Below are positions 20,846 through 39,067 of a stretch of DNA of 64,000 bases, piece by piece. Position numbers and translations under genes: made by a program. The DNA comes from Thermoplasmata archaeon (GTDB lineage: Archaea > Thermoplasmatota > Thermoplasmata > Lutacidiplasmatales > UBA184). Position 1 is the first letter of the stretch; every line of letters starts with the position of its first letter. Location: contig JASHPZ010000022.1 of assembly GCA_030037815.1 (NCBI GenBank), positions 1,782-65,781 on the forward strand. The letters are read 5' to 3'. A model generated the notes under the pieces. It ran no database searches and was not told where the DNA came from. It worked only from the letters and a program-made list of their open reading frames with translations.

Positions 20846-22555
20846 ATGCCGGCCCGTGTCATGAAGGACTTTCAGGCGCCCCGGGGACTGCCGCGCAAGA
20901 CCGCCTCGGTCTGCCCCGAGTGCATCAAGGTGATCCCGGCGGTCGTCCGCGAGAAGGACGGCCGGGTCATCATGGAGAAGACGTGCCGCTCGCACGGCTA
21001 CTTCTGGGACATCATCTCGAACGACGTCGACTTCTACCTCCGCATGGAGGTCTACGCGCACGACGGCGTCGGCTACGAGAACCCGTACTACGACAAGTTC
21101 ATCGGCTGCCCGACGACGTGCGGGATGTGCAGCCACCACAAGTCGCACACCGGCCTCGCGCTGGTCGACCTGACCAACCGCTGCAACCTGAAGTGCCCGG
21201 TCTGTTTCGCGAACGCCAACGCGGCCGGCTACGTCTTCGAGCCGACCCGCGAGCAGATCCACTTCATGCTGAAGACCCTCCGGGAGCAGAAGCCGGTGGG
21301 GACGGTCGCGGTCCAGTTCTCGGGCGGCGAGCCGACCCTCTCTCCGCTCTTCCTGGACGCGGTCTCGATGGCCCGTGACCTGGGCTTCAAGCAGGTCCAG
21401 GTCGCGACCAACGGGATCCGGGTCGCGAACGAGCCCGGCTTCGCCCAGCAGTGCCGGGACTCGGGGCTCCACACGCTCTACCTCCAGTTCGATGGCCTGG
21501 ACGAGGAGATCTACCGGAAGGTCCGTGGCGTGCCGCTCCTCAAGGTGAAGCAGAAGGCGATCCAGGCGGCGCGCGAGACCCACTCGCCGGCGACCGAGCT
21601 CGCCGCGGGGAAGCCCGACAAGCCGCTCTCGGTCGTGCTCGTCCCGACGCTGGTCGGCGGGTTCAACGAGAAGGAGATCTGGCCGACGGTGAAGTTCGCG
21701 ATCGACAACATCGACGTCGTCCGCGGCGTCAACTTCCAGCCGGTCGCCCTGACCGCGCGGATCCCCGACAAGGACCGGTTCCAGATGCGGTTCACCCAGT
21801 CGGACCTCGTCCGGATCCTCTGCACGGAGGGCCCGTTCGACAAGTCGGACTTCTTCCCGGTGCCGTCGGTCGCTCCGATCTCGGAGCTCGTGTCGATCAT
21901 CCACGGCGAGGAGAAGATGACCCTCACGACCCACCCCGGCTGCGGGTGCGCGACGTTCGCCTTCATCTCGAAGGACGGGCAGAAGATCACCCCGCTGCCG
22001 CGGTTCATGGACGTCGACGGGTTCTTCGAGAACGTCGAGTCGATGATCGAGAAGTACCGGGACGCGCGGTTCGCGCGGGTCCGGACGGCCGTCGCGGGCG
22101 CCCGCCTGCTCCACGACGTCGCGAAGTATTTCGACTTCTCGAAGGCGCCGGAAGGCCTGAACGAGAAGAACTGCGTCAAGGTGATTGCGGGGATCTTCAC
22201 CGAGGGCAACAAGGAGGCGCTCGCGAAGTTCACGTGGCGCACGCTCTACATCGGGAACATGCACTTCCAGGACGCGTACGACTACGACATCCAGCGCCTG
22301 ATGCGCTGCGATATCCACTACGCGGTTCCGGACGGGCGCGTCATCCCGTTCTGCTCGTACAACTCGGGCCCGATCTACCGGACGGAGGTCGAGCAGAAGT
22401 TCTCGATCCCGATCCCGGACTGGCAGGCCGCGAAGCGCTCCGGCGGCACCCCGCTCAAGACCATCGAGACGATGGGCGTGAACGGCGAGGTCGTCGTGGA
22501 CGCCGAGTACTACAAGATCCGGGCGCTCAAGGGCGCGCCGGGCATGTCGACCTAA
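20846..22555 (+). CDS. Large radical SAM enzyme with an N-terminal Cys4/rubredoxin-like ribbon and extra C-terminal Cys motifs. It may be a tetraether lipid synthase (Tes/GDGT-MAS)-like enzyme.
   Basis: CNLKCPVCF is the CxxxCxxC radical-SAM cluster motif. The N-terminus has CPECIKV...KTCRSHG. The C-terminus has HPGCGCATF and RCDIHY...FCSYNSG. The protein is 569 aa. A GAGGT ribosome-binding site lies 7 nt upstream of the ATG. Confidence 0.8.
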   Translation: MPARVMKDFQAPRGLPRKTASVCPECIKVIPAVVREKDGRVIMEKTCRSHGYFWDIISNDVDFYLRMEVYAHDGVGYENPYYDKFIGCPTTCGMCSHHKSHTGLALVDLTNRCNLKCPVCFANANAAGYVFEPTREQIHFMLKTLREQKPVGTVAVQFSGGEPTLSPLFLDAVSMARDLGFKQVQVATNGIRVANEPGFAQQCRDSGLHTLYLQFDGLDEEIYRKVRGVPLLKVKQKAIQAARETHSPATELAAGKPDKPLSVVLVPTLVGGFNEKEIWPTVKFAIDNIDVVRGVNFQPVALTARIPDKDRFQMRFTQSDLVRILCTEGPFDKSDFFPVPSVAPISELVSIIHGEEKMTLTTHPGCGCATFAFISKDGQKITPLPRFMDVDGFFENVESMIEKYRDARFARVRTAVAGARLLHDVAKYFDFSKAPEGLNEKNCVKVIAGIFTEGNKEALAKFTWRTLYIGNMHFQDAYDYDIQRLMRCDIHYAVPDGRVIPFCSYNSGPIYRTEVEQKFSIPIPDWQAAKRSGGTPLKTIETMGVNGEVVVDAEYYKIRALKGAPGMST

Positions 22556-27786: not shown

Positions 27787-28404
27787 ATGCGCCGGTTCCT
27801 CCTCCTCGCGCACCGGGTCCCGGTCCGCGGCGGGTTCACGCTCAACGACCTCGCGGGCGGCGGCGGTCGGATGGACGAGGTCGCCCGGGCCGTCTCGACG
27901 GCGTTCACCCTCTCGAACGACCTCCGCCGCGACACCGAGATGACGGTCCTGTTCTCGGCCGAGCCCCCGCCGGCGGCCCGCAAGGTCCACCTGGTCGGGG
28001 CGCGGCTCCGCTACCTGAACCCGGACGAGCGGTCGACCGCCGCCCTGCTCAAGAACGCCCTCGTCCGGGCGGCCGACTTCCCGCGCGAGTTCGAGTCGTC
28101 CCCCGGGCTCCGCGTCGGTCCGGCCGACCCGCTCGACGAGCTGCGGGCGTTCCTGCGGGGACCCGGGACGGTCTGGCTGACCGAGTCGGGCCGCCCGGTC
28201 GCGGAGTGGGCGCCCCCCGGGTCGGACGTCGCCGCCGTGCTCTCGGACCCCGACGACCCGACCCCCGCGGAGGCCGAACTCCTCGGCGCGAGCGGGGTGC
28301 CGCGGTACTCGGTCGGCCCGCGATCGCTGCGCACGAGCCAGGTGGTCGACCTGTTCCACGCCGAGGTCGACCGCCGCGAGGCGGCCCGTCCCGTCACGCC
28401 GTGA
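27787..28404 (+). CDS. trmY: tRNA (pseudouridine54-N1)-methyltransferase TrmY (SPOUT, COG1901/DUF358).
   Basis: The N-terminus MRRFLLLAHRVPVRGGFTLNDLAGGGGRMDEVARAVSTAFTLSNDLRRD matches the TrmY consensus (M..F...a....t..f.L.DLpG..GRlDllcR....aFflS...RrD). Confidence 0.7.
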   Translation: MRRFLLLAHRVPVRGGFTLNDLAGGGGRMDEVARAVSTAFTLSNDLRRDTEMTVLFSAEPPPAARKVHLVGARLRYLNPDERSTAALLKNALVRAADFPREFESSPGLRVGPADPLDELRAFLRGPGTVWLTESGRPVAEWAPPGSDVAAVLSDPDDPTPAEAELLGASGVPRYSVGPRSLRTSQVVDLFHAEVDRREAARPVTP

Positions 28405-29392
28405 CGGCGTCCCGCACGGTCCGCGTGCGGAGCCCCCCGACCACGGCGGTCAGGTGGACGACCTCCCGCGGCTCGGGGCGGACCCGGGTCCCAAAGACGA
28501 GCCGCTCGGGCTCCCCGAGGCGCGTGCGCATCGCCCGCAGCACGCGGTCGAGGCAGCGGAGCGTGAAGTTCGACCCTCCCTCCAGGTGGACGAGGGCGCT
28601 CGTGCGGCCCGAGAAGTGGAAGTCGAGGAGCGAGCCCGACAGCGCCTCCTGGACGAGCCGCTCGGGCTCGGAGACGTGGTACTCCCCCGAGAGGAGGGTC
28701 GAGAGCCCCGAATCCCGGAGGTGGTTTTTGAGGGTCGCGAGGTCGACGTTCAACTGGGACGGGTGGTCGACCATGTCGACCAGGCTCGCGACCAGCGAGT
28801 GGAGGTAGGCGTTCCGCACCTGGAAGACGCGGTGGATCGGGAGCGACTCGAACCGGCGGAGCTTCTCGTTCGAAAGGGCGAGGAGGAGCCCCCCCATCTC
28901 CTCGAGCTCGTCCACGGTCGCGACCACGTTCTCCCGCCGGCTCGCGTTGGTCTCGAGCTCGACCTGGAACGGGAGGAAGACGACCGGGACGGGCAGCGTC
29001 TCGGTGCGGCGGAGCTGCCCCGCGAGGTACGGGAGCAGCGCGCTCCCGGTCCCGCCCCCGAGGCCAGCGAGCAGGAAGACGATCTCGAACGGCCGCAGCC
29101 GGCGGAGCAGCTCCTCGCGGCTCTCCTCGGCCGCCCGAAGGACCGCGTCGCGGTCGCCGCCGCTTCCGCGTCCGCGCAGTTCGCGGTGGGCGAGGAGGAT
29201 CCGCTCGTCCACGCCGACCCGCGCCAGGTGCTTCGCGTCCGTGTTGACGGCGATCGCGTGCGCGCCGGGGATCCCGAGCGCGAGGAGGTCCTGGACCGCC
29301 TCGCTGCCGGCACCGCCCAGGCCGACCACGGCGACCGACGGCGTGATCGCGAGCGAGGCCCACGCCTCGGGAGAATCGGGCTCGCCGGTCAT
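28394..29392 (-). CDS. FtsZ/tubulin-family GTPase. It is short (332 aa), divergent, has no C-terminal tail and has an altered T7 loop.
   Basis: The G-box is VAVVGLGGAGSEAV. A second motif is AVNTDAKHL. The tubulin signature is AGLGGGTGSA. The PVVFLPFQVE segment is present. The T7 loop reads QLNVDLATL where FtsZ has N.DFAD, so the second acidic residue is missing. Confidence 0.75.
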   Translation of the reverse strand: MTGEPDSPEAWASLAITPSVAVVGLGGAGSEAVQDLLALGIPGAHAIAVNTDAKHLARVGVDERILLAHRELRGRGSGGDRDAVLRAAEESREELLRRLRPFEIVFLLAGLGGGTGSALLPYLAGQLRRTETLPVPVVFLPFQVELETNASRRENVVATVDELEEMGGLLLALSNEKLRRFESLPIHRVFQVRNAYLHSLVASLVDMVDHPSQLNVDLATLKNHLRDSGLSTLLSGEYHVSEPERLVQEALSGSLLDFHFSGRTSALVHLEGGSNFTLRCLDRVLRAMRTRLGEPERLVFGTRVRPEPREVVHLTAVVGGLRTRTVRDAVTA

Positions 29393-29408
29393 CCGTCCCC
29401 CGTCCGCC

Positions 29409-29774
29409 CTACGGCGGGGGAGACCCTTCCGCGGCGACCGGCTCCCCTTCCCGGCGGTGCGTCCGGCCGGTCGGAGCGAGCTGCTCGATCCGGCTGCGGA
29501 TGTACTCGCGGACCGCGGAACGGACGGCGTCGTCCAGGCTGACGGACGCCCCCTCGCGGACGAACTCCTCGAGCCGGCTGTTGTCCTGCCGGGAGAGCTC
29601 GACCACGACCTTGCGGATGTTCTGCGGCGGCAGGTGGAGCTCGATGTACTGCTCGAGTCCCTCCCGGATCGTGTCGGAGATCGTCGGCGTGCCCTTCGCC
29701 TGCTGGATCTGCTTCAGCTTCTCGAGGAGATCCTGCGGGATCCGGACCGTCACCCGCTCCGACGTGTCGACCAT
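29409..29774 (-). CDS. Ribbon-helix-helix (CopG/Arc-like) DNA-binding protein, apparently with two RHH-like halves.
   Basis: The first half is VTVRIPQDLLEKLKQIQQAKG...REGLEQYIE. The second half is VVVELSRQDNSRLEEFVREG...VREYIRSR. It lies 16 nt upstream of the FtsZ-like gene. Confidence 0.7.
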   Translation of the reverse strand: MVDTSERVTVRIPQDLLEKLKQIQQAKGTPTISDTIREGLEQYIELHLPPQNIRKVVVELSRQDNSRLEEFVREGASVSLDDAVRSAVREYIRSRIEQLAPTGRTHRREGEPVAAEGSPPP

Positions 29775-29809: not shown

Positions 29810-29952
29810 ACGACATATCGGGTTCCGACTATATCAAATCAGGGGAGCCGCGGGGCTTCGGGATTTAATCGGGCCCATCAGCCCTCGTGTGATTCTATTC
29901 GGGAGACTGTGATTTATTTGGCTACACCCGGCAACCGACAGTAGGGAGGCCG

Positions 29953-31029
29953 CTAGAGGGGTCTCCCCCCCTCAGTTGAGGGGGGTCTGGATGCCCTCAA
30001 TCTGAGTCCTACGTATCTGCGCAGGGCCAGTGCGATCGATAGTGCCATTTCTGCATCTGGTCGCTCTACGAGTTCATCCGGCCGCTCTGGGTGGGCACCA
30101 GCAGCGAGTAAGGACTTGACCGAACCTTGGTAAGCGAGCATGGCTTGAACTAAGTCCCCGAACGCATCAGTCATCTTCCGAGCTTTCTTCTCTGCTGATC
30201 CGAATCGATCCCCGAACGCGGAGTTCGAATTTGCCCCCAACTCGCGTTCCAAGGTCTCGACGACATCTCGGGACGCCGCTATCGAGAGCTTGTACTCCCC
30301 CGAAAGGAATTGCTTGACGGCATTTCTCAAGTAGACGTCCACTTGAGCAGAATTCTCAAAATTCTCTACGGGGACCTCATAGATCAACCAGTTACCATAC
30401 CCTAGGCCAGGGAGAAGTTTCTCAACCCATTTGCTCCTCTCGATTGTCAGAGTATGCATCCTTTCGTCGTGGCTCACGACTTCCAGGTCTTCCGTGTTGA
30501 ATGGGACCAGGTACGGCATCTTCCCCACGGGAAGGGCTCCCTCGTCGAACTCGTACCGGGCGATCCCCCCAAACCTGACTTGAATCCCAAAAGAGGGTTC
30601 GTTACCGGCTCGAGCGTCCTCGAGACCCTCGAGAACCGTTGGTTGGAGCGGAAACTGGAACTCGAACTCTACTTCGTAGCCCGCGTTGAGCACAAGGTTG
30701 GAAGTCCGAAGGGTGCGGGCGTACCCCTTCGCCACTAACGGCATGTTAACGAGGGACCCCTGAGGGCCAGCGGTCCACCTCAACCAGGCATCGGCCTGAA
30801 GGACCACAAACTGGACAGACTTGGCGTCGGTTCGCTCGATCTGAACGTTCGTACCTCCACCACTCGATGAAACTTGTACCAGGACTACCGCAGAGAGTAC
30901 TGGCATGAATCCGCTGTTGCCAGTGTCGAAGGACTTGAGCTCGAGATGGAAGAAACACTGCGGATTGAGTACCATCTTCCCACCCGCCGCTCGACCTGTA
31001 ACCTCTGCAGGCTTTGAGCCCCATCCCAT
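29953..31029 (-). CDS. Island hypothetical protein A.
   Basis: The ORF is 358 aa with protein-like composition. It lies downstream of the operon after a 455-nt gap. I recognise no family. Confidence 0.45.
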   Translation of the reverse strand: MGWGSKPAEVTGRAAGGKMVLNPQCFFHLELKSFDTGNSGFMPVLSAVVLVQVSSSGGGTNVQIERTDAKSVQFVVLQADAWLRWTAGPQGSLVNMPLVAKGYARTLRTSNLVLNAGYEVEFEFQFPLQPTVLEGLEDARAGNEPSFGIQVRFGGIARYEFDEGALPVGKMPYLVPFNTEDLEVVSHDERMHTLTIERSKWVEKLLPGLGYGNWLIYEVPVENFENSAQVDVYLRNAVKQFLSGEYKLSIAASRDVVETLERELGANSNSAFGDRFGSAEKKARKMTDAFGDLVQAMLAYQGSVKSLLAAGAHPERPDELVERPDAEMALSIALALRRYVGLRLRASRPPSTEGGRPL

Positions 31030-31484
31030 ACCGAGTTCCGCTAGTTTGTGCCCAGCCTATCGGAGCTATGGAAGCGCGAGCCGACCCCAGTCCGTTGGTA
31101 AAGTTAGACCATTTGCGTCCTCCTTACGGTTGAACTGCAGAAGTTTGCCTAACGTCATGGCCGAATGGACCGCCAGATGCCGATGCTCAGAGACCTCCCG
31201 ATGCTCGGGCCACGGGTGTGACAGGCATACAATTCAGAGGATCGACCTTAGCGGCAGGTTGTCCGTTCGACCCTCCCAATGCATCTCAGGTGGCCCTCGG
31301 CTGCTACTTCGGAATCCTGCACCGCAGGGCATGAGTTCCCCGCGCGTGCGCCTGCGAGAAGACAGCGGTCGGAATCGAGTCGGCATATTCCTTAGCGAGC
31401 CCCGGGTAGTTGCGGGAGCACCGGGCCGCAAGGCCTCCTTGAGCTCAGTGTCCGTTCATGAACCGGAACGTGGTGGAACCCACC

Positions 31485-32264
31485 CTACGGCCGCCCAGGC
31501 CTCGCCGTGGGATACCAGAGCGGTGCCTGGATGGGTCGGCTTGTGCCCAGCCGTTTCCCGATTGGATAGCAAGGCATCACGGGCATCTTTTCTACGATTG
31601 CAACCATTTCGGGCGGCCAACCTCCTTCGACAATGGTCGGGAAGTGATCGCTAAGTATCCCGTATACGACCGCCGGCAGATCGAGCGGGGGCGTTGGAAC
31701 CCGCGGGACTCCAGATTTTATTTGCGACTGCCGCTGAACGCATCTAGTACCGATCGCCTGCTCGGAAATACCGCCGAAGTCTATCTGTGCATGGAAGAGC
31801 GGATGATCTCTTTGGAAGTGCTTGTCGGGGTCGAATGCCATGTCGTAGTGGAGCCCCGCAAGGACTTGGGATGGTGCCCAGCGGGCCGGTGGTAGGTCAG
31901 GGCGGTCCGTGTCCGTTCGACGATAGTGGACCCGAACGACGGACGCTATGACCTCATAATTTCCGCCAGTCGCACCCCGTGTGGACTGTCTTATCTCCTG
32001 CTCAAATTGGATCGAAATCTCGCATGTTGACTTGCCGAGGCTCTGCGGCTTGATGGGGACCTGCAAGAAATGCAACGCGCAATCTCCTCCGCACGTAGCG
32101 GTTAGACAACCGACTCTTCCCTCCGGGTCGAAGTCTACTTGAATTTCGCCTGGTGTCGAGGGTCGAGCGTTCGGCAGCAATCCGCTGAGTCGTGTCCAAA
32201 ACTCTGAGTAACGTGAGAGGAGGACTGGCTTGTCCCTGAGACTCAGCCCGCCCGTCCTAAACAT
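31485..32264 (-). CDS. Island hypothetical protein B, His-rich (HYDMAFDPDKHFQRDHPLFH). It may be a metal-dependent enzyme.
   Basis: The ORF is 259 aa and lies 16 nt downstream of the receiver-like gene, so it is probably co-transcribed. Confidence 0.45.
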   Translation of the reverse strand: MFRTGGLSLRDKPVLLSRYSEFWTRLSGLLPNARPSTPGEIQVDFDPEGRVGCLTATCGGDCALHFLQVPIKPQSLGKSTCEISIQFEQEIRQSTRGATGGNYEVIASVVRVHYRRTDTDRPDLPPARWAPSQVLAGLHYDMAFDPDKHFQRDHPLFHAQIDFGGISEQAIGTRCVQRQSQIKSGVPRVPTPPLDLPAVVYGILSDHFPTIVEGGWPPEMVAIVEKMPVMPCYPIGKRLGTSRPIQAPLWYPTARPGRP

Positions 32265-32280
32265 GAACTCAATGACCTTT

Positions 32281-33357
32281 TCACAACGTGAGCCACGGGG
32301 GGAGCCGGGCGAACTCTCGTTTTCTAATTCGCGAGCGGTCCGCGCCCAACGGTATCAGCGCCATCGGACGTACCGAGTGTCTCTCGCAAACTGGTCGCTC
32401 GGACACGATACAAAAGTACCCCGCCCCTTCATGACCCTCCGCGCAACGACAGTGCGAGATTCCCCCTAACTTGCTCTGCGCGAGGTCGTATCCGGTGCCG
32501 TGGGTCGACGACGCCGGACTCCCGGTGGCGATGATCCGATCTAACTCGCAGGTCCACCAGTAGGGCCCTGTTTCTGAGAAGGGTCCCCGATAGACCGCGT
32601 CATCGAACAATCCCCGAACTTCAGCTCGTTCATTGAACTGTTGGTCGTCGATGTCAAGGTAGGATGCGGCCGCGGTCGCATTTAGAAGAACTCCCGCGAA
32701 ATGTAGCAGCTCGTTTACAACCCAGTATCCAAGTGTCGAAGCGACGATTCGAGTCTTCCGAGCCGAATCTAGCTTCCTGCTCGCCCTCACCACGGCGACG
32801 GGAGTCTTTGGGCCCCAGCGATACCGTTGCAGTGCGAGCGCTGCTTCGGCAGGGGCCTTCAACACGCTCTTGGCAAACTGATCCATCCTCTGAGTGGACG
32901 AGAGGTTCGAATTAGCGACCAGTTGGTCGAATCCCGAGGCATACGAAATCAAGAGTTGGGGTACACGTGACGACTGCTCAGCGACGTCAATCGATATCTC
33001 CCGATCTCGACTCCTTAGAAGATATTCAGTCCTCGTCGCCGCCCCAGGTTGAAAAGTATAGACGCAGACCGGGACGCCGATTTGCTGGCAGACCGTCTGC
33101 ACGCCGTCCCGGTCAACCAGCGGGTCGTACATTGTGAGGTCATAGTCCAACACGGCGAGACTCGCCACTCTGGGGGAGCTTAGAAAACGTCGAATCTGAC
33201 TGCGAAGTCGCATATCATAGGACTGCGCCGGTTCGTTTGGCCGTCTGGGCGGGGGGACGAAGCGAGCGGCGTTGGGCGTCGTCGCAACTTGAGATTCCAG
33301 CTGCTCGTGTAGCTCTTCATAGGGCTGCGGATCATCTTCAAAGAAAACTATGCGCAT
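32281..33357 (-). CDS. Receiver-like (REC) domain protein with a C-terminal Cys/His-rich effector domain of unknown function.
   Basis: The start is taken at the internal ATG (MRIVFFEDDP...). REC-like landmarks are the acidic pair (EDD), a candidate phospho-acceptor Asp (LAVLDYDL) and a Thr (VCVYT), with a loop insertion. The C-terminal cluster is HCRCAEGHEGAGYFCIVSERPVCERH. It lies 10 nt downstream of the GHKL/HK gene. Confidence 0.5.
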   Translation of the reverse strand: MRIVFFEDDPQPYEELHEQLESQVATTPNAARFVPPPRRPNEPAQSYDMRLRSQIRRFLSSPRVASLAVLDYDLTMYDPLVDRDGVQTVCQQIGVPVCVYTFQPGAATRTEYLLRSRDREISIDVAEQSSRVPQLLISYASGFDQLVANSNLSSTQRMDQFAKSVLKAPAEAALALQRYRWGPKTPVAVVRASRKLDSARKTRIVASTLGYWVVNELLHFAGVLLNATAAASYLDIDDQQFNERAEVRGLFDDAVYRGPFSETGPYWWTCELDRIIATGSPASSTHGTGYDLAQSKLGGISHCRCAEGHEGAGYFCIVSERPVCERHSVRPMALIPLGADRSRIRKREFARLPPWLTL

Positions 33358-33367
33358 ATCCTCTGAC

Positions 33368-35623
33368 CTAAAGTGGGAAGGCAACCTCAAATGCCGTGAC
33401 AAAGCCCTCAGGAGGTGCAGCGACCCTAATCTTCCCACCGACGGCCGTAACAGCACGCTTTACGATGAACAGCCCGAGCCCCAACCCGCCGGCTAGTGGT
33501 CCTGCAAGCTCTCGGGTTGTGGATACAAATGGGTCGAAAATGTAGTCCTTGATTTCCGGCGGTATTCCTGGTCCGGTGTCAGCGACACGAAGGATGTGCT
33601 CACCCTCAGTGTTCCGGGCCTCAATTCGGATCACGCGCGTGCCATCCTCTTTTGAGTGCATTAGTGCCTTGAGGGCATTCGTATAGAGGTTCAGAACGAC
33701 TGCCGAGTAGAGACCCCCCCAGACCTTCGGCGGGCGCATCCCTTCCTCCACCTTGTTCTCGGACTGAATCCTGCGCTTCGTAGCGATGTCCGAGAAGAGT
33801 CCCACTACGTGTTCAACAAGATCATACGGGCTGAACGGCTCTGGACCGACATCTGGTAGCCTGTGGAGGAATGTCTGCGAGTAGTCCATAAATGATCTGA
33901 GGCGATAAATCGAATCCTCCACCGACGTTCGGGCTTTCTCCATAGCAGCAGCGCGTCCGTCTGACTCGGCTCGTTTAAGCGCACTGACGGAATCCCTCAA
34001 AGAAGTCATCAAGGTCTTGGTCTCATGGGTCATGAAACTCGCGAGAACTCCGAGAAGTGAAGCAGACTCGACGGCAGCCAGCGCCTTTGACCTGGCCTCG
34101 TCGGTCCGGGTGTAACGTTCGGCAAGTTCCCTGAATGCGGCAAGAACCACGGTTTTTTCCGACGGGACAATGTCTCTACTCCGCTGAACTCGGAGGGCGG
34201 CGGCCGCGAGCGATTCACGGAAATCCTTGGCCTCAGTTTCGGCCTCTTCTCGGTCAATCTCTTGAACCCCACGGGCGTCGACAACTGCAAGGAGTTCGAC
34301 GGCGGTGATTACGAGTTGACGGAGTAGTCTGAACCCCTCGTTTTGGACAAGCCCCTGCCGGTCCATGGAGGGTTGAATTCTATCGATCTGGACGGCTCCC
34401 ACGGTCGACCGCTCACGAAAAGTTTCGATCGAGACCCAGCCGAGGACTTGGTGGTTCGCCGGGACGCGAAGATACGGGCTGTAACGGCCATCCGTCTCAA
34501 AAGTCGAGTCGGCGAGTAACTCGTCAGTTACAGGCGAGACCCATCGACGGAGGTTTCTTGCCATTCGGCCGGAAAGGTAGAGCCAGTCATCCTCGGGTTC
34601 CCCGTAGGGCTTAACCCGGATGCCCCGATCAACCAATCTAACGCCGCCCTGCTCCTGGAGGTAGGCGTGCGCCCGCCTCCCATCTGCGGTCGTGAGTCCA
34701 GAGAACACACCCGAGCGGTGCGGATAGAAACCTATCTCGCCTTGGAGGGGCCCAATCAACGCCTCCAATTTCGGAATTGTAGCAGTCCACTTGGAACTGA
34801 ACCGAGTCTCTTGGGTTTCCGGATTGCGGTAAGTAACCCGGTAGGTCAGCTTGCCGCCCTTGCTTGAGAACCGAACTCTGGCCAGCCATCGGTCCACTAT
34901 CTCACTGGTGGCGGTCTGAAGTTCAGTGCCGGATCCTGGCTCTCCGAAATACACTCGTAGGCCTGGGTCCTCTTCGGTCGACGAGGACGCTCGAGCTAGC
35001 CATTCTGGAATCGCTGGAGTGACTACGTCCAAAACCTGATTTGTGACTCTAGCCAACCTGGCCGAGTCCCAGTCGTCGGCGAGTTTTCCAATGCTCAGGT
35101 GGGTGTAACTCGCGTTGTCGGGCCGTGGCGAAAGAATACGGTAGTGTACCTTGATGTCCTTCAGCTCACGTCCCGGTTTGAATTTGGCCCAATCGAAATC
35201 CGAAGACAACCGAAGACGCTTCCCCGCCTCCCCAGAATCCGCTGTTGTGTCCAAGTTGAGAGTCAGGCCGAGACGCCGGACAGCAAAGCGTCCGACTCCC
35301 TTCGACCCGGTGAGTGGGCGTTTGAAGATTCGAGACGCGTCCGAGCCAAGTTTTGACGTGGTTCCGATGCGCATCCATCCAGAGAGAAATTCCCGTTCAT
35401 TCATCCCGGTCCCGTTGTCTTGTATGTGCAACTTTGGCGACGCACCCCCCTCGAGCCACAGATAGACTTCCGTCGCATCGGCATCAAACGAATTCTTAAT
35501 CAGCTCAGAAAGCGCGGTGTTTGGATCGACAATCAGTCGCTCTCCGAGCTCAGACAGAATTTGCGCGTCACCTGAGAACGTCGCGTCAGCTTCCCGTAGA
35601 GGGGGGCCCTCCGACTGAGCCAT
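33368..35623 (-). CDS. Dual-GHKL protein: an N-terminal MORC/MutL-like GHKL ATPase plus a C-terminal histidine kinase (HisKA + HATPase_c).
   Basis: N-terminal GHKL motifs are ELIKNSFDADATEV (motif I), IQDNGTGMNEREF (motif II) and GSKGVGRFAVRRLG (motif III). The C-terminal kinase has an H-box (SFMTHETKTLMTSL), an N-box (VVLNLYTNALKA), G1 (VADTGPGIPPE), an F-box (IFDPF) and G2 (GGLGLGLFIV). The protein is 751 aa. Confidence 0.8.
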   Translation of the reverse strand: MAQSEGPPLREADATFSGDAQILSELGERLIVDPNTALSELIKNSFDADATEVYLWLEGGASPKLHIQDNGTGMNEREFLSGWMRIGTTSKLGSDASRIFKRPLTGSKGVGRFAVRRLGLTLNLDTTADSGEAGKRLRLSSDFDWAKFKPGRELKDIKVHYRILSPRPDNASYTHLSIGKLADDWDSARLARVTNQVLDVVTPAIPEWLARASSSTEEDPGLRVYFGEPGSGTELQTATSEIVDRWLARVRFSSKGGKLTYRVTYRNPETQETRFSSKWTATIPKLEALIGPLQGEIGFYPHRSGVFSGLTTADGRRAHAYLQEQGGVRLVDRGIRVKPYGEPEDDWLYLSGRMARNLRRWVSPVTDELLADSTFETDGRYSPYLRVPANHQVLGWVSIETFRERSTVGAVQIDRIQPSMDRQGLVQNEGFRLLRQLVITAVELLAVVDARGVQEIDREEAETEAKDFRESLAAAALRVQRSRDIVPSEKTVVLAAFRELAERYTRTDEARSKALAAVESASLLGVLASFMTHETKTLMTSLRDSVSALKRAESDGRAAAMEKARTSVEDSIYRLRSFMDYSQTFLHRLPDVGPEPFSPYDLVEHVVGLFSDIATKRRIQSENKVEEGMRPPKVWGGLYSAVVLNLYTNALKALMHSKEDGTRVIRIEARNTEGEHILRVADTGPGIPPEIKDYIFDPFVSTTRELAGPLAGGLGLGLFIVKRAVTAVGGKIRVAAPPEGFVTAFEVAFPL

Positions 35624-37018
35624 CTATCGGCCCGCGGATCGTGGCGACTCGGTATAGGCCGATAGAATTGAGTTCATTTGGCCCACTTCGATGCGTCTCA
35701 TGCCCCCGACCCAGGGGACGCTACCGCGAGCGAAGTTCCAAGACTTAAGGTAGTTCACCAGGCGGCTAGGGGACTGCCTCGGAGTCCCAATGTGTATCGC
35801 GTGGACGGTACCGAGGTGGACAACCCCGCTCGGATTGCTCACAACTTTGAGGCCGCGAGAACTCGAGTACGCGCTGGAATAGAGGACTTTCCCGGGGATC
35901 GGCACGGTGTAGTCGTACCAAACCGCTCGAGCCCCGCAAGTACTGTTCTCTTGAATCGATTTGGGCACCGAATCCAACCATGCCCGTACGGCAGAATCGA
36001 GCCCTGGCGAGTCCGTCCTCAAGAGCCAACACCGAAGTCCGGCACGGACGTACCTAGCCGTGAATGCAGCTCGAGTGAGAGTGGTGAAGGTGTTTGGGAG
36101 TGGCCGAAGGGTGCCCACCGCTGGCCAAACCGCGTCAAGCGGAATTCGCGCCTCAATACGTTCCGCCTCTGTCAAGACGAACCAGTTTCGTGAGCCTGGG
36201 CTCAGCCCTCTGAAGGCATACAGGTGATCCGATCGTGGCGAGTGCCCTCTCGTGGAAATCAATCGCCTCGAGCCGCCACCCTTTCTTGGGCGAAGGTCGG
36301 CGCGCAGTTTCACCAAGCTGACAGTGGAGCATGACTCGTTTTTTTCGATCAGAGTGATCCCTGCGTTCGCCCTCTTTCCGATGTCAAAATCCACCGTGGA
36401 AGGGAGCTCGAATAGTGTAACCTTCCACTTGTGTTTCAGAATGTAACTCCTTAGTGCTCGGGTAGCAGCTTTCTGGATCCAGTCAGACGGTAAGACCATG
36501 CAGACTCTCCCATCTGCCGACGTCCTCAGAGTTGCGAACCAAAGAAAGTAGCAGGCGAGGTTTCCCAGCGGGCCAGGGTCAACCCCAGCTTCCTGTTTTA
36601 TCAATCGACGTGCGCGATCACGCCACAGCGAGTCCAAGTCTTGCACTCGCATGAAGGGCGGATTTCCTATTGCTAATTCGAACTCGCCCTTCGCTTCCAG
36701 GGCGTCCCGACACCGAATCTTTGCATTCCGAGGAAGAGTGAGGGTTCGTACTTTGGGGTCCAGCTCATACCCTAGGTACGACCCATACTTTCCGTAGAGC
36801 GCGAATCGGCCGTCCCCCGCACCCAGATCGAGGACAGTGTGCGGCTTGAACCGACCTTTCGTACACAGCCGCCAAGCCGCCGAGACTACGGGATATGGAG
36901 TCACAACCTGGCACCGTCGAAGGCTCGGCAAGTTACCCCGCGTCCCGGGTCGGCTGGAAACCTGTCCGGGAATAGTCTTCACCGGAAATGGTCGGGGGTT
37001 AGACTTTGAACTGATCAT
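35624..37018 (-). CDS. N6-adenine-type DNA methyltransferase (gamma-like order: motif I precedes NPPF) with a large C-terminal presumptive target-recognition region.
   Basis: Motif I is VLDLGAGDGRF. Motif IV is IGNPPF. The protein is 464 aa. Its stop abuts the GHKL/HK start. Confidence 0.78.
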   Translation of the reverse strand: MISSKSNPRPFPVKTIPGQVSSRPGTRGNLPSLRRCQVVTPYPVVSAAWRLCTKGRFKPHTVLDLGAGDGRFALYGKYGSYLGYELDPKVRTLTLPRNAKIRCRDALEAKGEFELAIGNPPFMRVQDLDSLWRDRARRLIKQEAGVDPGPLGNLACYFLWFATLRTSADGRVCMVLPSDWIQKAATRALRSYILKHKWKVTLFELPSTVDFDIGKRANAGITLIEKNESCSTVSLVKLRADLRPRKGGGSRRLISTRGHSPRSDHLYAFRGLSPGSRNWFVLTEAERIEARIPLDAVWPAVGTLRPLPNTFTTLTRAAFTARYVRAGLRCWLLRTDSPGLDSAVRAWLDSVPKSIQENSTCGARAVWYDYTVPIPGKVLYSSAYSSSRGLKVVSNPSGVVHLGTVHAIHIGTPRQSPSRLVNYLKSWNFARGSVPWVGGMRRIEVGQMNSILSAYTESPRSAGR

Positions 37019-37168
37019 GAGCCCCGAAACCCCAAGACGCGCATCTACGTAGACTTACCGACGTCGACGTCGGGTCTCCCCTGTGAACTACATGAGCTGC
37101 CCCTCGGAACCGGAGGGTGGGCGCCCCGCAATGGGGGCCGCGGGTAGACGCGCCGCTCTGCCTGTTTG

Positions 37169-37513
37169 CTATTTACGGTGTGGGAAGTCGATTGCCTTCA
37201 GCGCCTGATTTCTGACCGATTCGGGAACGGAGCCGTCGCCCCCGATTTCTGCGAGTAGTTGGAGTCCTGCTGCTCCAGTCTTCGCCAGGGCTGTGACCGC
37301 GTGTTCTTTGACGCTGGACGGAGATTGAGGATCCCTGATGGTCTTCGATAGCGACTTTGCCAACTTGGCGGCCTCGTCAGTCTGCACCCAAGCCTCGATT
37401 GCCTCGACCAAGCCCTTGCTGAGGTCTCCCTTCCGGCCGCCGAACCGCTGGGCCACGGTAATCCGCAGCCGTTTGGCCAGTGCGTCTGGGATAACCGCGT
37501 CAATTCGAGCCAT
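37169..37513 (-). CDS. RHH (CopG/MetJ/Arc-like) transcriptional regulator with a C-terminal HEAT-like helical repeat. It is the first gene of the island operon.
   Basis: The start is taken at the internal ATG (MARIDAVIPDALAKRLRITVAQRFGGRKGDLSKGLVEAIEAW is an RHH). The longer listed start (37579) would overlap the divergent transposase start. Confidence 0.55.
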   Translation of the reverse strand: MARIDAVIPDALAKRLRITVAQRFGGRKGDLSKGLVEAIEAWVQTDEAAKLAKSLSKTIRDPQSPSSVKEHAVTALAKTGAAGLQLLAEIGGDGSVPESVRNQALKAIDFPHRK

Positions 37514-37550
37514 TGGTAATCTCTCAGAGTCACCCCATAGATGAACATTT

Positions 37551-38957
37551 GTGTCTACCCACTTATCCGAGTTGCTCATATACTTCCGTGATATGTGTGT
37601 AAGTGGTTACACACGCAATATGACGAAACTCGGCGAGGGCGATATGGTTGCACGCCTGCGGGCGTTCGAGCTCATCGCTGCTAACGAAGAGCCGATCATT
37701 CCTGTCAGCCGGTCGACCTACAGGGTGCACTCCCAATCGCGGGACAGCTACTACACGATTTCTCGTAAGCAGGGTCACTGGTGGTGTACCTGCGACGGGT
37801 TTGACGCTGCCCGGGGGCGGTGCAAACACATCTGGGCGGTCGAGATTTGGCGGGAGCCGGCGAAACACTATGTTCAGAACTCGTCCGAATCGTCTTCCCA
37901 CAAGAGTTACGGTCAGGATTGGCCCGCATACGACGCCGGCCAGCAGGATGAACACCGACTCTTCGATCGCCTACTTTGGGGACTCCTCGAAGACGTAGTC
38001 GAGCCCGTCCGCCCAGTAGGCAAGCGCGGGCGGCCTCCAATCCCGCTCCGTGTTCAGCTGCTTCACTCGATCCGGAAAGTTCACCTGAACAAGGCAGCGC
38101 GGGAGGTCAAGGGACTGCTCGACACGATCTATGCGGGCGGGCTTGGAATCGTGGAAGGGATACCAAACTACGCGACCCCATCCCGCCTTTTCAACCAGCC
38201 CTTCGTCTCAGAGATTCTTGTTGGCTTGATAGAGCGCTCTAGCCTTCCCCTGAAGGACATCGAGGAGACTCGAACTGTCGCGATCGACTCATCAGGTTTC
38301 TGCCTCACCTGCATGAGTGCCTATTGCACCGAGAAGCACGATCCGACTCGGAAGCACAAGTGGATCAAGGCTCACGTCATCATCGGGGTGAAAACTCACA
38401 TCATACTGGACGTCCGGATCACAGATGAACACGGTGCGGACTGCCCGCAGCTTATCCCGATGCTGGAGGACCTGGTTCGCCGAGGATTCCGACCCAGGAA
38501 AGTGCTCGGCGACAAGGCCTACCTGTCACGGGAGAACTACCGGGTCGCCCGGACCATCGGAGCCGACGCTTACTTTCCGTTCAAGCCGAACAGTGTCGGA
38601 ACCTCGAAAGGGAGCTGCGAGTGGGCCCGAAAGTACCACCAATTCCAACTAAAACGCGAGGAGTTCGACCACGAGTATCGCCAACGGAGCAACGTCGAGG
38701 CGGTCTTCTCCGCCATAAAGAGAAAGCTTGGTGAGCCCCTCTTCTCGAAGAACGTCCTTTCACAATTCAACGAGCTCCTCGCCAAGCTGCTCGCCTACAA
38801 CATCGGTATCGTAATCCACGAGATGCACGAGCATGGGATTGATCCCGAGGTCAACTGCCCACCGGATCCCCCCTATGTCCCACCTGTCCCGGTCTTCGAG
38901 CCCGCTCCCTGTGATTCAAATGGGGAGGTTGTGATTGAATTCGAGGTAGTATCCTAG
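37551..38957 (+). CDS. Transposase: an N-terminal SWIM zinc finger plus a DDE domain of the IS4/IS5 superfamily.
   Basis: The SWIM motif is WWCTCDGFDAARGRCKH. The DDE residues lie in AIDSSGF and LGDKAY. HEYRQRSNVEAVFSAIK matches the Y-(2)-R-(3)-E-(6)-K signature. The start is GTG. Confidence 0.8.
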   Translation: MSTHLSELLIYFRDMCVSGYTRNMTKLGEGDMVARLRAFELIAANEEPIIPVSRSTYRVHSQSRDSYYTISRKQGHWWCTCDGFDAARGRCKHIWAVEIWREPAKHYVQNSSESSSHKSYGQDWPAYDAGQQDEHRLFDRLLWGLLEDVVEPVRPVGKRGRPPIPLRVQLLHSIRKVHLNKAAREVKGLLDTIYAGGLGIVEGIPNYATPSRLFNQPFVSEILVGLIERSSLPLKDIEETRTVAIDSSGFCLTCMSAYCTEKHDPTRKHKWIKAHVIIGVKTHIILDVRITDEHGADCPQLIPMLEDLVRRGFRPRKVLGDKAYLSRENYRVARTIGADAYFPFKPNSVGTSKGSCEWARKYHQFQLKREEFDHEYRQRSNVEAVFSAIKRKLGEPLFSKNVLSQFNELLAKLLAYNIGIVIHEMHEHGIDPEVNCPPDPPYVPPVPVFEPAPCDSNGEVVIEFEVVS

Positions 38958-39067
38958 TAAAATCCCAAAGCCGGAGCCGCGGATGCGGGGGCGTCGCGCG
39001 CTCGTCGCCATCCGTACGGATCGACCCGAGCGGGGCCGCGTCCGCCGGGCCGTCCGTCTCTCGGGCG

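What the first reader, a model, noticed from the sequence alone, without database searches (positions are those of the whole stretch)
32281..37579. Island operon: RHH, N6-adenine methyltransferase, dual-GHKL (MORC-like + histidine kinase) protein and receiver-like effector. Candidate undescribed methyltransferase-linked, phosphorelay-coupled restriction/defence module.
Four co-directional, tightly packed genes lie on the minus strand. The methyltransferase stop abuts the GHKL/HK start. There is a 10-nt gap to the receiver-like gene and a 16-nt gap to hypothetical B. The operon sits inside a lower-GC island next to a transposase.

The methyltransferase has classical N6-adenine motifs (VLDLGAGDGRF, IGNPPF) and a large C-terminal region of the kind used for target recognition. 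No recognisable restriction endonuclease is encoded.

In place of one, the operon encodes a protein that fuses a MutL/MORC-type GHKL ATPase to a complete histidine-kinase core. Iyer, Abhiman and Aravind (2008) linked MutL/MORC-type GHKL ATPases to restriction-modification systems.

The next gene has a CheY-like N-terminal region carrying the acidic pair, a candidate phospho-acceptor Asp and a Thr. It is followed by an uncharacterised domain with a C-x-C-x4-H...C...C-x2-H metal-binding cluster (HCRCAEGHEGAGYFCIVSERPVCERH). This cluster could be an HNH/treble-clef-like nuclease or a DNA-binding module.

The architecture suggests a modification enzyme plus a sensing and phosphotransfer-gated effector. 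I do not recognise this combination from described defence systems (BREX, DISARM, Dnd, Zorya, Wadjet and others). It would couple two-component signalling to a restriction-modification-like logic.
Basis: partly seen in the sequence, partly recalled or inferred. Interest (0 to 1): 0.9.

Follow-up and report, generated by a model that had tools for sequence, protein, structure and literature searches.

The report
Ambrosia-like methylase/kinase phage-defence cassette variant
A 9-kb transposon in an archaeal genome carries a four-gene cassette (DNA methylase, MutL-like/histidine-kinase fusion, receiver protein, unknown enzyme-like protein) that is an uncharacterised, widespread relative of the recently validated 'Ambrosia' anti-phage system.

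Summary

Three corrections:
- The next gene (31485-32264, "hypothetical B", here P5) is a conserved core member. The RHH and hypothetical A are not.
- The Cys/His cluster is not conserved, so it is not an HNH-like module.
- The combination is not undescribed. Bellieny-Rabelo et al. (2021) reported HK-like/RR-like pairs beside R-M genes. The 2025 "Ambrosia" preprint validated XRE + N6-MTase + HATPase/HK + REC + HNH as anti-phage. The window's kinase is homologous to AbrB (E=4e-28) and its receiver to AbrC (E=9e-10, D71=D60).

Verdict: new variant of a known kind.

The parts
35624..37018 (-). N6-adenine DNA methyltransferase (gamma-class, Eco57I/TaqI-like, 464 aa). Motif I is VLDLGAGDGRF and motif IV is GNPPF. 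The C-terminal region is of the M_Eco57I_C/TaqI target-recognition type.
   Evidence: Pfam Eco57I at 3.9e-10. PADLOC MTase_II at 4.3e-14 and a weak mad2 hit. The precomputed annotation gives a faint M_Eco57I_C hit. 31-34% identical over the full length to the MTases of the Pseudomonas and Acinetobacter cassettes. The only PDB sequence hits are very weak matches to M.TaqI (E=0.4).
33368..35623 (-). paraMORC-histidine-kinase fusion (751 aa), the AbrB homologue. It has an N-terminal MutL/MORC-type GHKL ATPase (motifs ELIKNSFDADA, DNGTGM, GSKGVGRFAV), a ~350-aa middle region, a DHp helix with the H-box FMTHETK (H533), and a C-terminal HK catalytic domain (N box NLYTNALKA, G1 DTGPG, G2 GGLGLGL).
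   Evidence: Pfam HATPase_c_3 and HATPase_c. NCBIfam HK models over 492-750 and BbrUII/HgiDII REase N-terminus over 19-137. PDB sequence hits to MutL and HK. Invariant catalytic residues in a 12-sequence alignment. 27% identical, E=4e-28, to the first ~370 residues of Ambrosia AbrB. 466 homologues with the same two-domain architecture.
32281..33357 (-). P4 (358 aa): a receiver (REC) domain (~1-125; acidic pair D8/D9, phospho-acceptor candidate D71), a long helix, and an unassigned ~200-aa C-terminal domain. The C-terminal domain has the motif LLNxxAAASYLxI...F..A.YRGPF...WW..LD, then C316...PV...S328...P336.GA..R343.
31485..32264 (-). P5 (259 aa): the conserved fourth component and probable effector. 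It has a conserved polar motif H139-x-D141 ... (H154)-P155-x-x-H158-x-Q ... P-R188-x-P ... P193-x-D195. The fold is alpha+beta with no close solved relative.
37169..37579 (-). Small RHH-like protein (136 aa) upstream of the MTase. It may act as a local controller protein, but it is not a conserved component.
   Evidence: RHH_6 at 3.7e-4, below the gathering score. No homologue in the other loci. Other cassettes have different small regulators at this position: PadR-like in Halopenitus, HTH in Paraburkholderia, XRE AbrR in Ambrosia.
29854..38972 (.). 9,119-bp transposon that carries the cassette. It has 13-bp terminal inverted repeats (29854-29866 and 38960-38972), flanked by a 10-bp direct repeat GGAGCCGCGG (29844-29853 and 38973-38982). 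GC is ~57%.
   Evidence: The inverted repeat is found only at these two places in the window (expected 0.08). The 10-mer abuts both repeats on the outside. An independent Logan contig equals window 29821-39009.
37551..38957 (+). IS5-family DDE transposase with an N-terminal SWIM zinc finger. The gene caller starts it about 31 codons later.
   Evidence: Pfam DDE_Tnp_1 at 2.7e-20 and SWIM at 6.3e-5. NCBIfam transpos_IS5_2 at 4e-36. A 437-aa gene call in L087.
29953..31029 (-). Hypothetical A (358 aa): transposon cargo, not part of the conserved cassette.
   Evidence: No family hits. No homologue in the other loci. Separated from P5 by 455 nt.

Best explanation
The window carries a transposon-borne anti-virus/anti-plasmid cassette of the Ambrosia / "paraMORC-HK + receiver beside R-M" family. 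This copy belongs to a previously uncharacterised subtype whose core is MTase - paraMORC-HK - P4 - P5.

Proposed mechanism:
1. The Eco57I/TaqI-like enzyme N6-methylates adenines at its own recognition motif in host DNA. Intact motifs are shown; activity and motif are inferred.
2. The 751-aa protein is the sensor. Its MutL/MORC-type GHKL ATPase and middle region engage DNA or another infection cue. ATP-driven N-terminal dimerisation is coupled to autophosphorylation of H533 by the C-terminal kinase domain. The domains and catalytic residues are shown. The N-terminal ATPase Asn is essential in Ambrosia. The coupling and the cue are inferred.
3. The phosphoryl group passes to D71 of the P4 receiver. 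The fold and homology are shown, and the equivalent D60 is essential in Ambrosia. Transfer here is inferred.
4. Phospho-P4 acts through its C-terminal domain to switch on the effector P5. It could do this by activating transcription, as Ambrosia reporters suggest, or by direct binding. P5 uses its conserved His/Asp/Arg site, probably as a metal-dependent hydrolase acting on nucleic acid. This step is inferred from position and conservation only.
5. Self versus non-self is set by the neighbouring DNA-modification enzyme. This is inferred because the HK-P4-P5 triad is found next to interchangeable modification modules.
For: **Architecture and catalytic residues:**

**Conservation of the four-gene cassette**
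- It recurs across archaea and bacteria with overlapping or abutting genes.
- In 79 species-level loci, 45 have HK-P4-P5 contiguous on one strand. In 38 of those 45 an N6 MTase is directly adjacent: 14 upstream, 24 downstream.
- Of the remaining triads, one has an N6_N4_Mtase-Mrr fusion and two have a PAPS-reductase (DndC-like) gene in the MTase position. The modification module therefore swaps while the triad stays.

**Mobile and defence contexts**
- A prophage immunity region in A. baumannii.
- An integrase island on a plasmid.
- 11 IMG/VR contigs with the full cassette.
- A transposon in this window.

**Homology to validated Ambrosia components**
- AbrB at E=4e-28.
- AbrC REC at E=8.9e-10, with the phospho-Asp aligned.
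- In Ambrosia, point mutations in every predicted domain (MTase T72A, HATPase N40A, REC D60A, HNH H60A) abolish defence, and expression is induced on infection.

**P5 as the effector**
- It occupies the slot held by HNH in Ambrosia, by a metallo-beta-lactamase-fold protein in Anabaena, and by Vsr/HNH_2 in the 2021 survey.
- P5's invariant residues are polar (His, Asp, Arg), whereas those of the P4 C-terminal domain are mainly aromatic.
Against: - No experiment exists for this subtype.
- The fold of the P4 C-terminal domain could not be assigned. Both the transcription and the direct-activation routes remain open.
- The window's P4 has no Lys in the beta5 segment (REISIDVAEQ), a residue that typical receivers need.
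- In Ambrosia, phage grown on cells expressing the MTase alone stayed sensitive. This argues against simple protection by methylation, at least in that relative.
- The MTases of the two systems are not orthologous.
- The loci sampled were the 80 closest to the query, so the frequencies are biased toward this subtype.
Confidence: 0.6

Rival explanations
1. This is the Ambrosia authors' model applied here. The kinase and receiver are purely a transcriptional switch, and the operon is silent until infection. Phospho-P4 then induces the MTase and P5. P5 attacks DNA carrying the modification made by the MTase (type IV logic), so methylation marks the target rather than protecting self.
For: - Ambrosia reporters placed at the abrA and abrD positions are induced on infection.
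- AbrA-methylated phage stay sensitive.
- The authors annotate AbrC as carrying a wHTH.
- The P4 C-terminal motif (strand, then AAASYLxI helix, then a second helix, then YWW strand) resembles an excisionase/MerR-type winged helix. That resemblance is my reading and is untested.
- Small regulators often precede the MTase.
Against: - The MTase and kinase genes abut or overlap and share one operon with the receiver. The sensor would therefore have to be made from the same silent transcript.
- The triad pairs with very different modification chemistries: N6A, N6/N4, C5 in the 2021 survey, and a DndC-like PAPS reductase. A single effector family is unlikely to recognise all of these as targets. That pattern is typical of restriction modules that read the absence of a mark.
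- No DNA-binding domain was detected in P4 by any search.
Confidence: 0.22
2. The cassette is a maintenance or addiction module, or an epigenetic regulatory module, of mobile elements rather than an antiviral system. Loss of the MTase would let the kinase-receiver-P5 arm kill the cell (post-segregational killing), or the module would regulate element genes.
For: - The cassette always sits on mobile DNA: transposon, prophage, plasmid island.
- R-M systems are known to behave as addiction modules (established knowledge).
- In MADS, a related methylation-linked system, one gene cannot be deleted unless the MTase is also removed.
Against: - The homologous Ambrosia system gives strong phage protection without host toxicity.
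- Addiction and defence are not exclusive.
- The position in the prophage next to the repressor is typical of superinfection-exclusion or defence cargo.
Confidence: 0.08
3. The receiver protein's C-terminal Cys/His cluster is an HNH/treble-clef nuclease, and that protein is the phospho-gated effector. The downstream gene is irrelevant.
For: - The cluster HCRCAEGHEGAGYFCIVSERPVCERH is present in the window's protein.
- Some homologues have four Cys.
Against: - Only C316 is invariant. Bacterial members have SFER/SFEE in place of CERH.
- There are no HNH or other nuclease hits.
- The downstream gene P5 is conserved with the cassette.
Confidence: 0.04
4. An ordinary environmental two-component system happens to sit next to an orphan methyltransferase.
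For: RefSeq annotates the kinase as 'sensor histidine kinase' and the MTase as 'class I SAM-dependent methyltransferase'.
Against: - Gene order is conserved across domains of life in mobile contexts.
- The kinase has no transmembrane or classical sensor domain. It has a MutL/MORC ATPase of the kind found in BbrUII/HgiDII restriction enzymes.
- The receiver protein has no known output domain.
Confidence: 0.02

Closest known systems
Ambrosia defence system (AbrR-AbrA-AbrB-AbrC-AbrD; van den Berg et al., bioRxiv 10.1101/2025.09.30.679545)
   Same: - Same operon logic and order: small regulator, N6-adenine MTase, ~750-aa HATPase_c_3 + HK protein, REC protein, then a ~210-260-aa fourth protein.
- The kinase is homologous to AbrB (27% identity, E=4e-28).
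- The REC domain is homologous to AbrC, with the essential Asp aligned.
- Both occur on mobile DNA.
   Different: - The fourth protein is not an HNH. P5 has an unknown fold and an HxD...PxxH motif.
- The receiver protein is 358 aa with an extra ~200-aa domain, against 209 aa in AbrC.
- The MTase belongs to a different N6A family (Eco57I/TaqI-like against N6_Mtase/MmeI-like), with no significant BLAST match.
- The regulator is RHH-like, not XRE, and is not conserved.
- Ambrosia was reported only in Gammaproteobacteria. This subtype spans many bacterial phyla and archaea.
HEF_HK / Response_reg_2 two-component-like elements linked to R-M and paraMORC ATPases (Bellieny-Rabelo et al. 2021, PMC8011034)
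   Same: - Same kinase architecture: HATPase_c_3 + DHp + HATPase_c, soluble.
- An adjacent receiver-like gene with conserved Asp residues.
- Enrichment beside R-M genes.
- Some homologues of the window's kinase carry PF19191.
   Different: - That study was bioinformatic, covered bacteria only, and emphasised C5 methylases with Vsr/HNH_2 neighbours.
- The window's kinase does not reach PF19191, and none of 25 receiver-position proteins scanned matched PF19192 in the Pfam copy used.
- P5 was not described there. It may be one of their unnamed orthologous groups; this was not tested.
Detocs (DtcA-DtcB-DtcC; Rousset et al., bioRxiv 10.1101/2023.01.24.525353)
   Same: A phage-defence system built on histidine-kinase to receiver phosphotransfer that gates an effector (for the reference; the system's make-up is from my own knowledge).
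   Different: - As I recall it, Detocs has no methyltransferase, and its kinase has a different sensor region with no MutL/MORC GHKL domain.
- Its effector is fused to the receiver (usually a PNP-type ATP nucleosidase), and a buffering receiver protein is present.
- None of these features were tested against sequences here.
GHKL-containing restriction and defence nucleases: BbrUII/HgiDII-family type II REases, and paraMORC3 / VcSduA Shedu (PMC12137116)
   Same: - An N-terminal MutL/MORC-type GHKL ATPase is used in restriction or defence proteins.
- The window's N-terminus matches NF050001 at 6.8e-15 and PADLOC REase_II models at 4e-7.
- GHKL-controlled output is proposed for VcSduA.
   Different: In those proteins the GHKL domain is fused directly to a nuclease. 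Here the output domain is a histidine-kinase core, so the signal leaves the protein by phosphotransfer.
MADS (methylation-associated defence system; bioRxiv 10.1101/2023.03.30.534895)
   Same: - A methylation-based multi-gene defence system with an N6 MTase.
- There is weak MTase similarity to mad2 (PADLOC 2.7e-8).
   Different: - No other MADS component is present.
- The NCBIfam MAD2 score is 11.8 against a cut-off of 720.
- The histidine kinase mentioned in that paper is only an island boundary gene.

Membership tests
Ambrosia defence system | AbrB-type protein: N-terminal HATPase_c_3 GHKL plus C-terminal histidine-kinase HATPase_c, ~750 aa, homologous to AbrB | tested here: met
   Pfam domains. 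BLASTP against the first 399 residues of AbrB gives 27% identity over 373 aa, E=4e-28. The AbrB C-terminal half was not available as sequence, but its listed Pfam domains are the same.
Ambrosia defence system | AbrC-type receiver protein with the essential phospho-acceptor Asp | tested here: met
Ambrosia defence system | N6-adenine DNA methyltransferase in the operon (AbrA) | tested here: inconclusive
   An N6A MTase is present and adjacent. It is not detectably orthologous to AbrA: no significant BLAST match for the window's MTase. AbrA is annotated N6_Mtase/MmeI_Mtase, while this one is Eco57I-type.
Ambrosia defence system | AbrD: HNH endonuclease (PF01844/PF13395) as fourth gene | tested here: not met
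   P5 has no HNH hit, no BLAST similarity to AbrD and no His-Me-finger fold match. True AbrD-like genes were found in other loci (L047, L058 and 8 viral loci), so the test had power.
Ambrosia defence system | AbrR: HipB-like XRE regulator upstream | tested here: not met
   The upstream gene is a weak RHH_6 match, not XRE.
Ambrosia defence system | Protection against phage | not testable with these tools
   Requires cloning and plaque assays.
HEF_HK / Response_reg_2 TCS-like elements (Bellieny-Rabelo 2021) | HATPase_c_3 + HEF_HK (PF19191) + HATPase_c kinase-like protein, soluble | tested here: inconclusive
   Both HATPase domains and an H-box (H533-E534) are present. PF19191 is not reported for the window's protein at E<=0.1, but it is precomputed for homologues P0054, P0060, P0072 and P0113.
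HEF_HK / Response_reg_2 TCS-like elements (Bellieny-Rabelo 2021) | Adjacent RR-like protein matching Response_reg_2 (PF19192) | tested here: not met
   No PF19192 hit for the window's P4 or for 24 other receiver-position proteins, even at E<=1-10. I could not verify that PF19192 is in the Pfam copy searched, so the negative is weak. A receiver-fold neighbour is present.
HEF_HK / Response_reg_2 TCS-like elements (Bellieny-Rabelo 2021) | Genomic association with R-M / DNA-modification genes | tested here: met
   38 of 45 triads have an adjacent N6 MTase, and others have an N6_N4 MTase or a PAPS-reductase gene.
Canonical two-component system (HisKA-type kinase + receiver) | Kinase H-box His, N, G1 and G2 boxes | tested here: met
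   H533, E534, N645, N649, K652, D682, G684, G686, G713, G715 and G717 are invariant in 12 diverse homologues. HK models and PDB HK chains match 492-750.
Canonical two-component system (HisKA-type kinase + receiver) | Receiver with acidic pocket, phospho-Asp at the end of beta3, Thr/Ser at beta4 and Lys at beta5 | tested here: inconclusive
   D8 and D71 are invariant and D73 nearly so. The beta4 position is T/S/A/H. No Lys is present in the window's beta5 segment REISIDVAEQ. The fold is clearly REC.
Canonical two-component system (HisKA-type kinase + receiver) | His-to-Asp phosphotransfer | not testable with these tools
   Needs biochemistry.
Type II restriction-modification system | Cognate restriction endonuclease with a recognisable nuclease fold | tested here: not met
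   No nuclease domain was found in any cassette protein by Pfam, PADLOC, NCBIfam or PHROGs. P5 has no nuclease fold match.
BbrUII/HgiDII-family GHKL restriction enzyme | Full-length match to NF050001 (GHKL N-terminus plus C-terminal nuclease) | tested here: not met
   Only residues 19-137 match, at 54.6 bits against a cut-off of 550. The C-terminus is a kinase core.
MADS | MAD2 methyltransferase at equivalog level plus MAD6-8 | tested here: not met
   NF047738 scores 11.8 bits against a cut-off of 720. No other mad hits were found.

The most novel reading that the evidence does not exclude
HK-P4-P5 is a portable "restriction" half. A MutL/MORC-type DNA clamp reads the modification status of DNA and reports it by His-Asp phosphotransfer to a dedicated receiver protein. 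That protein then licenses an enzyme of a previously unseen fold (P5). The module would be modification-agnostic, pairing with N6A, N6/N4, C5 or Dnd-like marks. It would be present in both bacteria and archaea and would be far more common than the HNH-bearing Ambrosia form. This would be the first case of epigenetic self/non-self discrimination transduced by a two-component phosphorelay, and P5 would be a new effector family.
Probability: 0.3. Interest if true: 0.85.

Novelty: new variant of a known kind. Interest (0 to 1): 0.6.

Why it matters
Two-component signalling coupled to a DNA methylase has only just been shown to defend bacteria (Ambrosia, one preprint, reported as gammaproteobacterial only).

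This window shows that a different and apparently commoner form exists. It is spread over many bacterial phyla, archaea, prophages, plasmids and transposons. Two of its four proteins (P4's C-terminal domain and P5) have no known relatives in Pfam, NCBIfam, PADLOC, PHROGs or the PDB.

The swapping of modification modules around a constant HK-P4-P5 triad gives a testable handle on two open questions. What does the MutL/MORC-like sensor detect? Does methylation protect self or mark the target? If P5 is an enzyme, it is a new effector family.

The archaeal, transposon-borne copy also extends this defence type to archaea.

Tried and rejected
**Searches on P4 and P5 that found nothing**
- Pfam, PADLOC, NCBIfam and PHROGs scans of P4 and P5, from the window and from three other cassettes.
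- Profile searches of P5 (34 sequences) and of the P4 C-terminal domain (14 sequences) against all PDB sequences. The only hit was a chance match at E=0.64.
- Per-member Pfam scan of the P4 C-terminal domain.
- tblastn of P5 against GenBank phages and PLSDB plasmids.

**Structure work**
- I ran P4 against the viral structure library hoping that its few REC proteins would expose the C-terminal fold. Nothing came in below E=0.015.
- The afdb50 library was unavailable.
It was redone with representatives.

**Family assignments considered and rejected**
- MADS: only weak MTase similarity.
- BbrUII/HgiDII REase: N-terminal domain only.
- HNH in the P4 C-terminus: the Cys/His cluster is not conserved.

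**Other negatives**
- I looked for a conserved upstream regulator. Small ORFs differ between loci and most have no family.
- hypA and the RHH gene have no homologues in other loci.
- I tried to name the host by cluster and contig look-ups but found no names. Marker families only show that it is an archaeon.
- No long terminal repeats turned up in the generic repeat scan. The short inverted repeats and the target-site duplication were found by eye and then tested.

Full report
**What is in the window.** The region 29.9-39.0 kb has 56-60% GC in a window that is otherwise 70-75% GC. On its minus strand lie six ORFs:
- a 136-aa ORF (37169-37579);
- a 464-aa ORF (35624-37018);
- a 751-aa ORF (33368-35623) that starts at the base after the previous stop;
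- a 358-aa ORF (32281-33357, taking the MRIVFF start) after a 10-nt gap;
- a 259-aa ORF (31485-32264) after a 16-nt gap;
- a 358-aa ORF (29953-31029) after a 455-nt gap.

A DDE transposase gene (37551-38957) lies on the plus strand.

**Domain checks.**
- The 464-aa protein matches Pfam Eco57I (3.9e-10) and PADLOC type II MTase models (4e-14). It carries motif I VLDLGAGDGRF and motif IV GNPPF. It is a gamma-class N6-adenine DNA methylase of the TaqI/Eco57I kind.
- The 751-aa protein has HATPase_c_3 at 34-133 and HATPase_c at 642-750.
  - Against PDB sequences, residues 30-133 match MutL N-terminal domains. Residues 506-750 match histidine-kinase DHp+CA modules.
  - NCBIfam gives many sensor-kinase models over 492-750 and the BbrUII/HgiDII restriction-enzyme family over 19-137.
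  - In an alignment of 12 diverse homologues, all ATP-binding residues of both GHKL domains and the H-box His-Glu (H533-E534) are invariant.
  - The "dual GHKL, MutL/MORC-like plus histidine kinase" description is confirmed.
- The RHH call is weak: 21.5 bits against a cut-off of 27.

I looked up where homologues of the 751-aa protein are encoded. In every case the order was MTase (Eco57I) - kinase - a ~355-376-aa protein - a ~211-277-aa protein, with overlapping or abutting genes:
- Halopenitus salinus (an archaeon);
- Pseudomonas sp. B21-051;
- an Acinetobacter baumannii prophage, where the cassette sits between the cI-like repressor and a Sak recombinase;
- the closest metagenomic relative;
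- a Paraburkholderia plasmid island next to an integrase.

BLASTP shows that all four proteins are homologous between these cassettes and the window. This includes the 259-aa "hypothetical B", here called P5. The RHH gene and hypothetical A have no homologue in any of the 86 related loci then held. Other cassettes carry different small regulators in front of the MTase, or none.

**How widespread it is.** A scan of one genome per species found at least 572 loci encoding a relative of the kinase. I kept the 80 closest. They come from many bacterial phyla and from archaea: Halostagnicola, Halolamina, Methanoperedens, Nitrosopumilus, Nitrososphaerales and uncultured archaea. I used profiles built iteratively from the cassette proteins.
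- 45 of 79 loci have kinase-P4-P5 contiguous on one strand.
- In 38 of those 45, an N6 MTase is directly adjacent: 14 upstream as in the window and 24 downstream of P5.
- Of the seven triads without such an MTase, one has an N6_N4_Mtase fused to an Mrr-like domain. Two have a PAPS-reductase (DndC-like) gene in the MTase position.
- In loci without P5, the gene after the kinase still matches the receiver part of the P4 profile. The next gene differs: an HNH, a metallo-beta-lactamase-fold protein, or unknowns.

In IMG/VR viral contigs, 76 loci encode a kinase relative. Of these, 11 carry the full MTase-kinase-P4-P5 cassette and 8 carry the HNH form. The picture is a constant kinase+receiver core, a variable fourth "effector" slot and a variable DNA-modification partner, carried on mobile DNA.

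**What is already known.**
- Bellieny-Rabelo et al. (2021, PMC8011034) described HATPase_c_3 + HEF_HK + HATPase_c proteins. These were 91.6% linked to an unannotated receiver-like gene and enriched beside R-M genes, and the authors related them to paraMORC ATPases. The study was bioinformatic and covered bacteria only.
- Van den Berg et al. (bioRxiv 10.1101/2025.09.30.679545) named a five-gene P. aeruginosa system Ambrosia. It comprises XRE regulator AbrR, N6 MTase AbrA, HATPase/kinase AbrB, receiver AbrC and HNH AbrD.
  - It blocks siphophages and myophages.
  - Point mutations in each domain, including AbrB N40A and AbrC D60A, abolish defence.
  - Reporters in the cluster are induced on infection.
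  - Phage grown on AbrA-expressing cells stay sensitive.
  - The system was reported only in Gammaproteobacteria.

I took the Ambrosia sequences from that paper's Table S1.
- The window's kinase aligns to AbrB with 27% identity over 373 residues, E=4e-28.
- AbrC matches my P4 profile over the receiver domain at E=8.9e-10, with D60 on the conserved Asp, which is D71 in the window.
- AbrA, the C-terminal part of AbrC, and AbrD show no similarity to the window's MTase, P4 C-terminal domain or P5.

The window's cassette therefore belongs to the same broad family as Ambrosia but is a different subtype. P4 and P5 have no model in PADLOC 2.0, NCBIfam of June 2026 or PHROGs. RefSeq calls them hypothetical proteins. 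I found no paper describing this subtype.

**The two unknown parts.**

*P4 C-terminal domain (about residues 150-358).* It is well predicted but has no Pfam, PDB-sequence or viral-structure match. Its invariant residues are mostly aromatic or structural: Y233, F251, Y256, G258, F260, W268, plus D273, C316, S328 and R343. A treble-clef or HNH nuclease is therefore not supported. The segment LLNxxAAASYLxI..F (strand-helix-helix) followed by YWW..LD looks to me like an excisionase/MerR-type winged helix. That would fit the Ambrosia authors' wHTH annotation of AbrC, but I could not test it.

**Most likely mechanism.** I favour a restriction-like logic. The MTase marks host DNA. The MutL/MORC-type ATPase half of the kinase senses foreign DNA or an infection cue and drives autophosphorylation of H533. 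The phosphoryl group passes to D71 of P4. Phospho-P4 then licenses P5.
- *Shown here:* the domains, the intact catalytic residues, the receiver fold, the homology to mutationally validated Ambrosia residues, the conserved gene order with translational coupling, and the mobile contexts.
- *Inferred:* the signal, the phosphotransfer, the way P4 acts on P5, and P5's chemistry.

The main comparative argument for "modification protects self" is that the same triad pairs with several unrelated modification chemistries. This is typical of restriction modules that read the absence of a mark and is hard to reconcile with an effector that must recognise each mark.

The main argument against is the Ambrosia result that AbrA-methylated phage remain sensitive. 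The authors' alternative is infection-induced transcription of an MTase plus a modification-dependent nuclease, and I keep it as a serious rival. One caveat for the window's copy: no Lys is visible in the beta5 segment of its receiver.

**Context noticed along the way.** The island is a transposon.
- A 13-bp inverted repeat, GGCTTCGGGATTT, occurs only at 29854-29866 and 38960-38972 (one mismatch; 0.08 expected).
- Each copy is abutted on the outside by the same 10-mer, GGAGCCGCGG. This gives a 9,119-bp element with a target-site duplication.
- An independently assembled Logan contig equals window 29821-39009. It ends one k-mer beyond the element on both sides, which suggests that the insertion is polymorphic or multi-copy in that sample.
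- The host is an archaeon: EF-1alpha at 734 bits and GDGT synthase Tes at 576 bits.

**Verdict.** It is a new variant of a known, very recently validated kind of defence system. It has two unassigned protein modules and a much wider distribution, including archaea, than has been reported for Ambrosia.

Noticed in passing
window 29844-29866 and 38960-38982: The low-GC island is a 9,119-bp transposon. It has 13-bp terminal inverted repeats (GGCTTCGGGATTT, 12/13 matching). Each is flanked on the outside by the same 10-mer, GGAGCCGCGG, which I read as a target-site duplication. The cargo is a SWIM-IS5 transposase, the RHH gene, the four-gene cassette and hypothetical A.
   Followed up: partly
L087 (Logan SRR21679853_8810) = window 29821-39009: An independent assembly yields the island as its own 9,189-bp contig, ending about one k-mer beyond the transposon ends. 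This suggests an assembly-graph branch, meaning the element is polymorphic or multi-copy in that sample.
   Followed up: no
window 20846-22555, 56107-57384, 28394-29774: The host is an archaeon with 72% GC. It encodes tetraether lipid synthase Tes (576 bits) and EF-1alpha (734 bits). Immediately left of the transposon is a CopG/RHH gene (29409-29774) followed by an FtsZ-family gene (28394-29392), resembling the archaeal cdrS-ftsZ2 pair.
   Followed up: partly
L044 5827-6948 and L072 5795-6898 (Tannerella, Chitinophagales): In two kinase-P4-P5 loci the MTase position is taken by a PAPS-reductase-domain (DndC-like) gene preceded by a large unannotated protein. This hints that the triad can pair with a non-methyl DNA modification.
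   Followed up: no
L060 9049-10726 (Anabaena azotica); L068 9037-10217 (Nitrosopumilus): Other fourth-slot variants exist after the kinase and receiver. Cyanobacteria have a metallo-beta-lactamase-fold protein. Nitrosopumilus has a canonical Response_reg protein followed by an unknown 199-aa protein.
   Followed up: no
L047 (Paceibacterota), L058 (Gemmatimonadaceae); viral loci L098, L103, L104, L122, L149, L160, L162, L163: Ambrosia-type cassettes (kinase + AbrC-like + AbrD-like HNH, often with an MTase downstream) occur outside Gammaproteobacteria and on IMG/VR viral contigs. The preprint reported a narrower distribution.
   Followed up: partly
window 37551-38957: The IS5-family DDE transposase carries an N-terminal SWIM zinc finger (Pfam 6.3e-5). 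Its exact sequence from the GTG start is not in the 15-billion-protein collection. The gene caller uses a start about 31 codons downstream.
   Followed up: no
window 29953-31029: Hypothetical A (358 aa) is transposon cargo. It has no hit in Pfam, PADLOC, NCBIfam or PHROGs and no homologue in any related locus. Its function is unknown.
   Followed up: partly
L165 3361-3606 (Paraburkholderia plasmid NZ_AP023177): An 81-aa HTH regulator overlaps the start of the MTase gene. This resembles a controller (C) protein and Ambrosia's AbrR. The window's RHH may play the same role, although it is unrelated in sequence.
   Followed up: no
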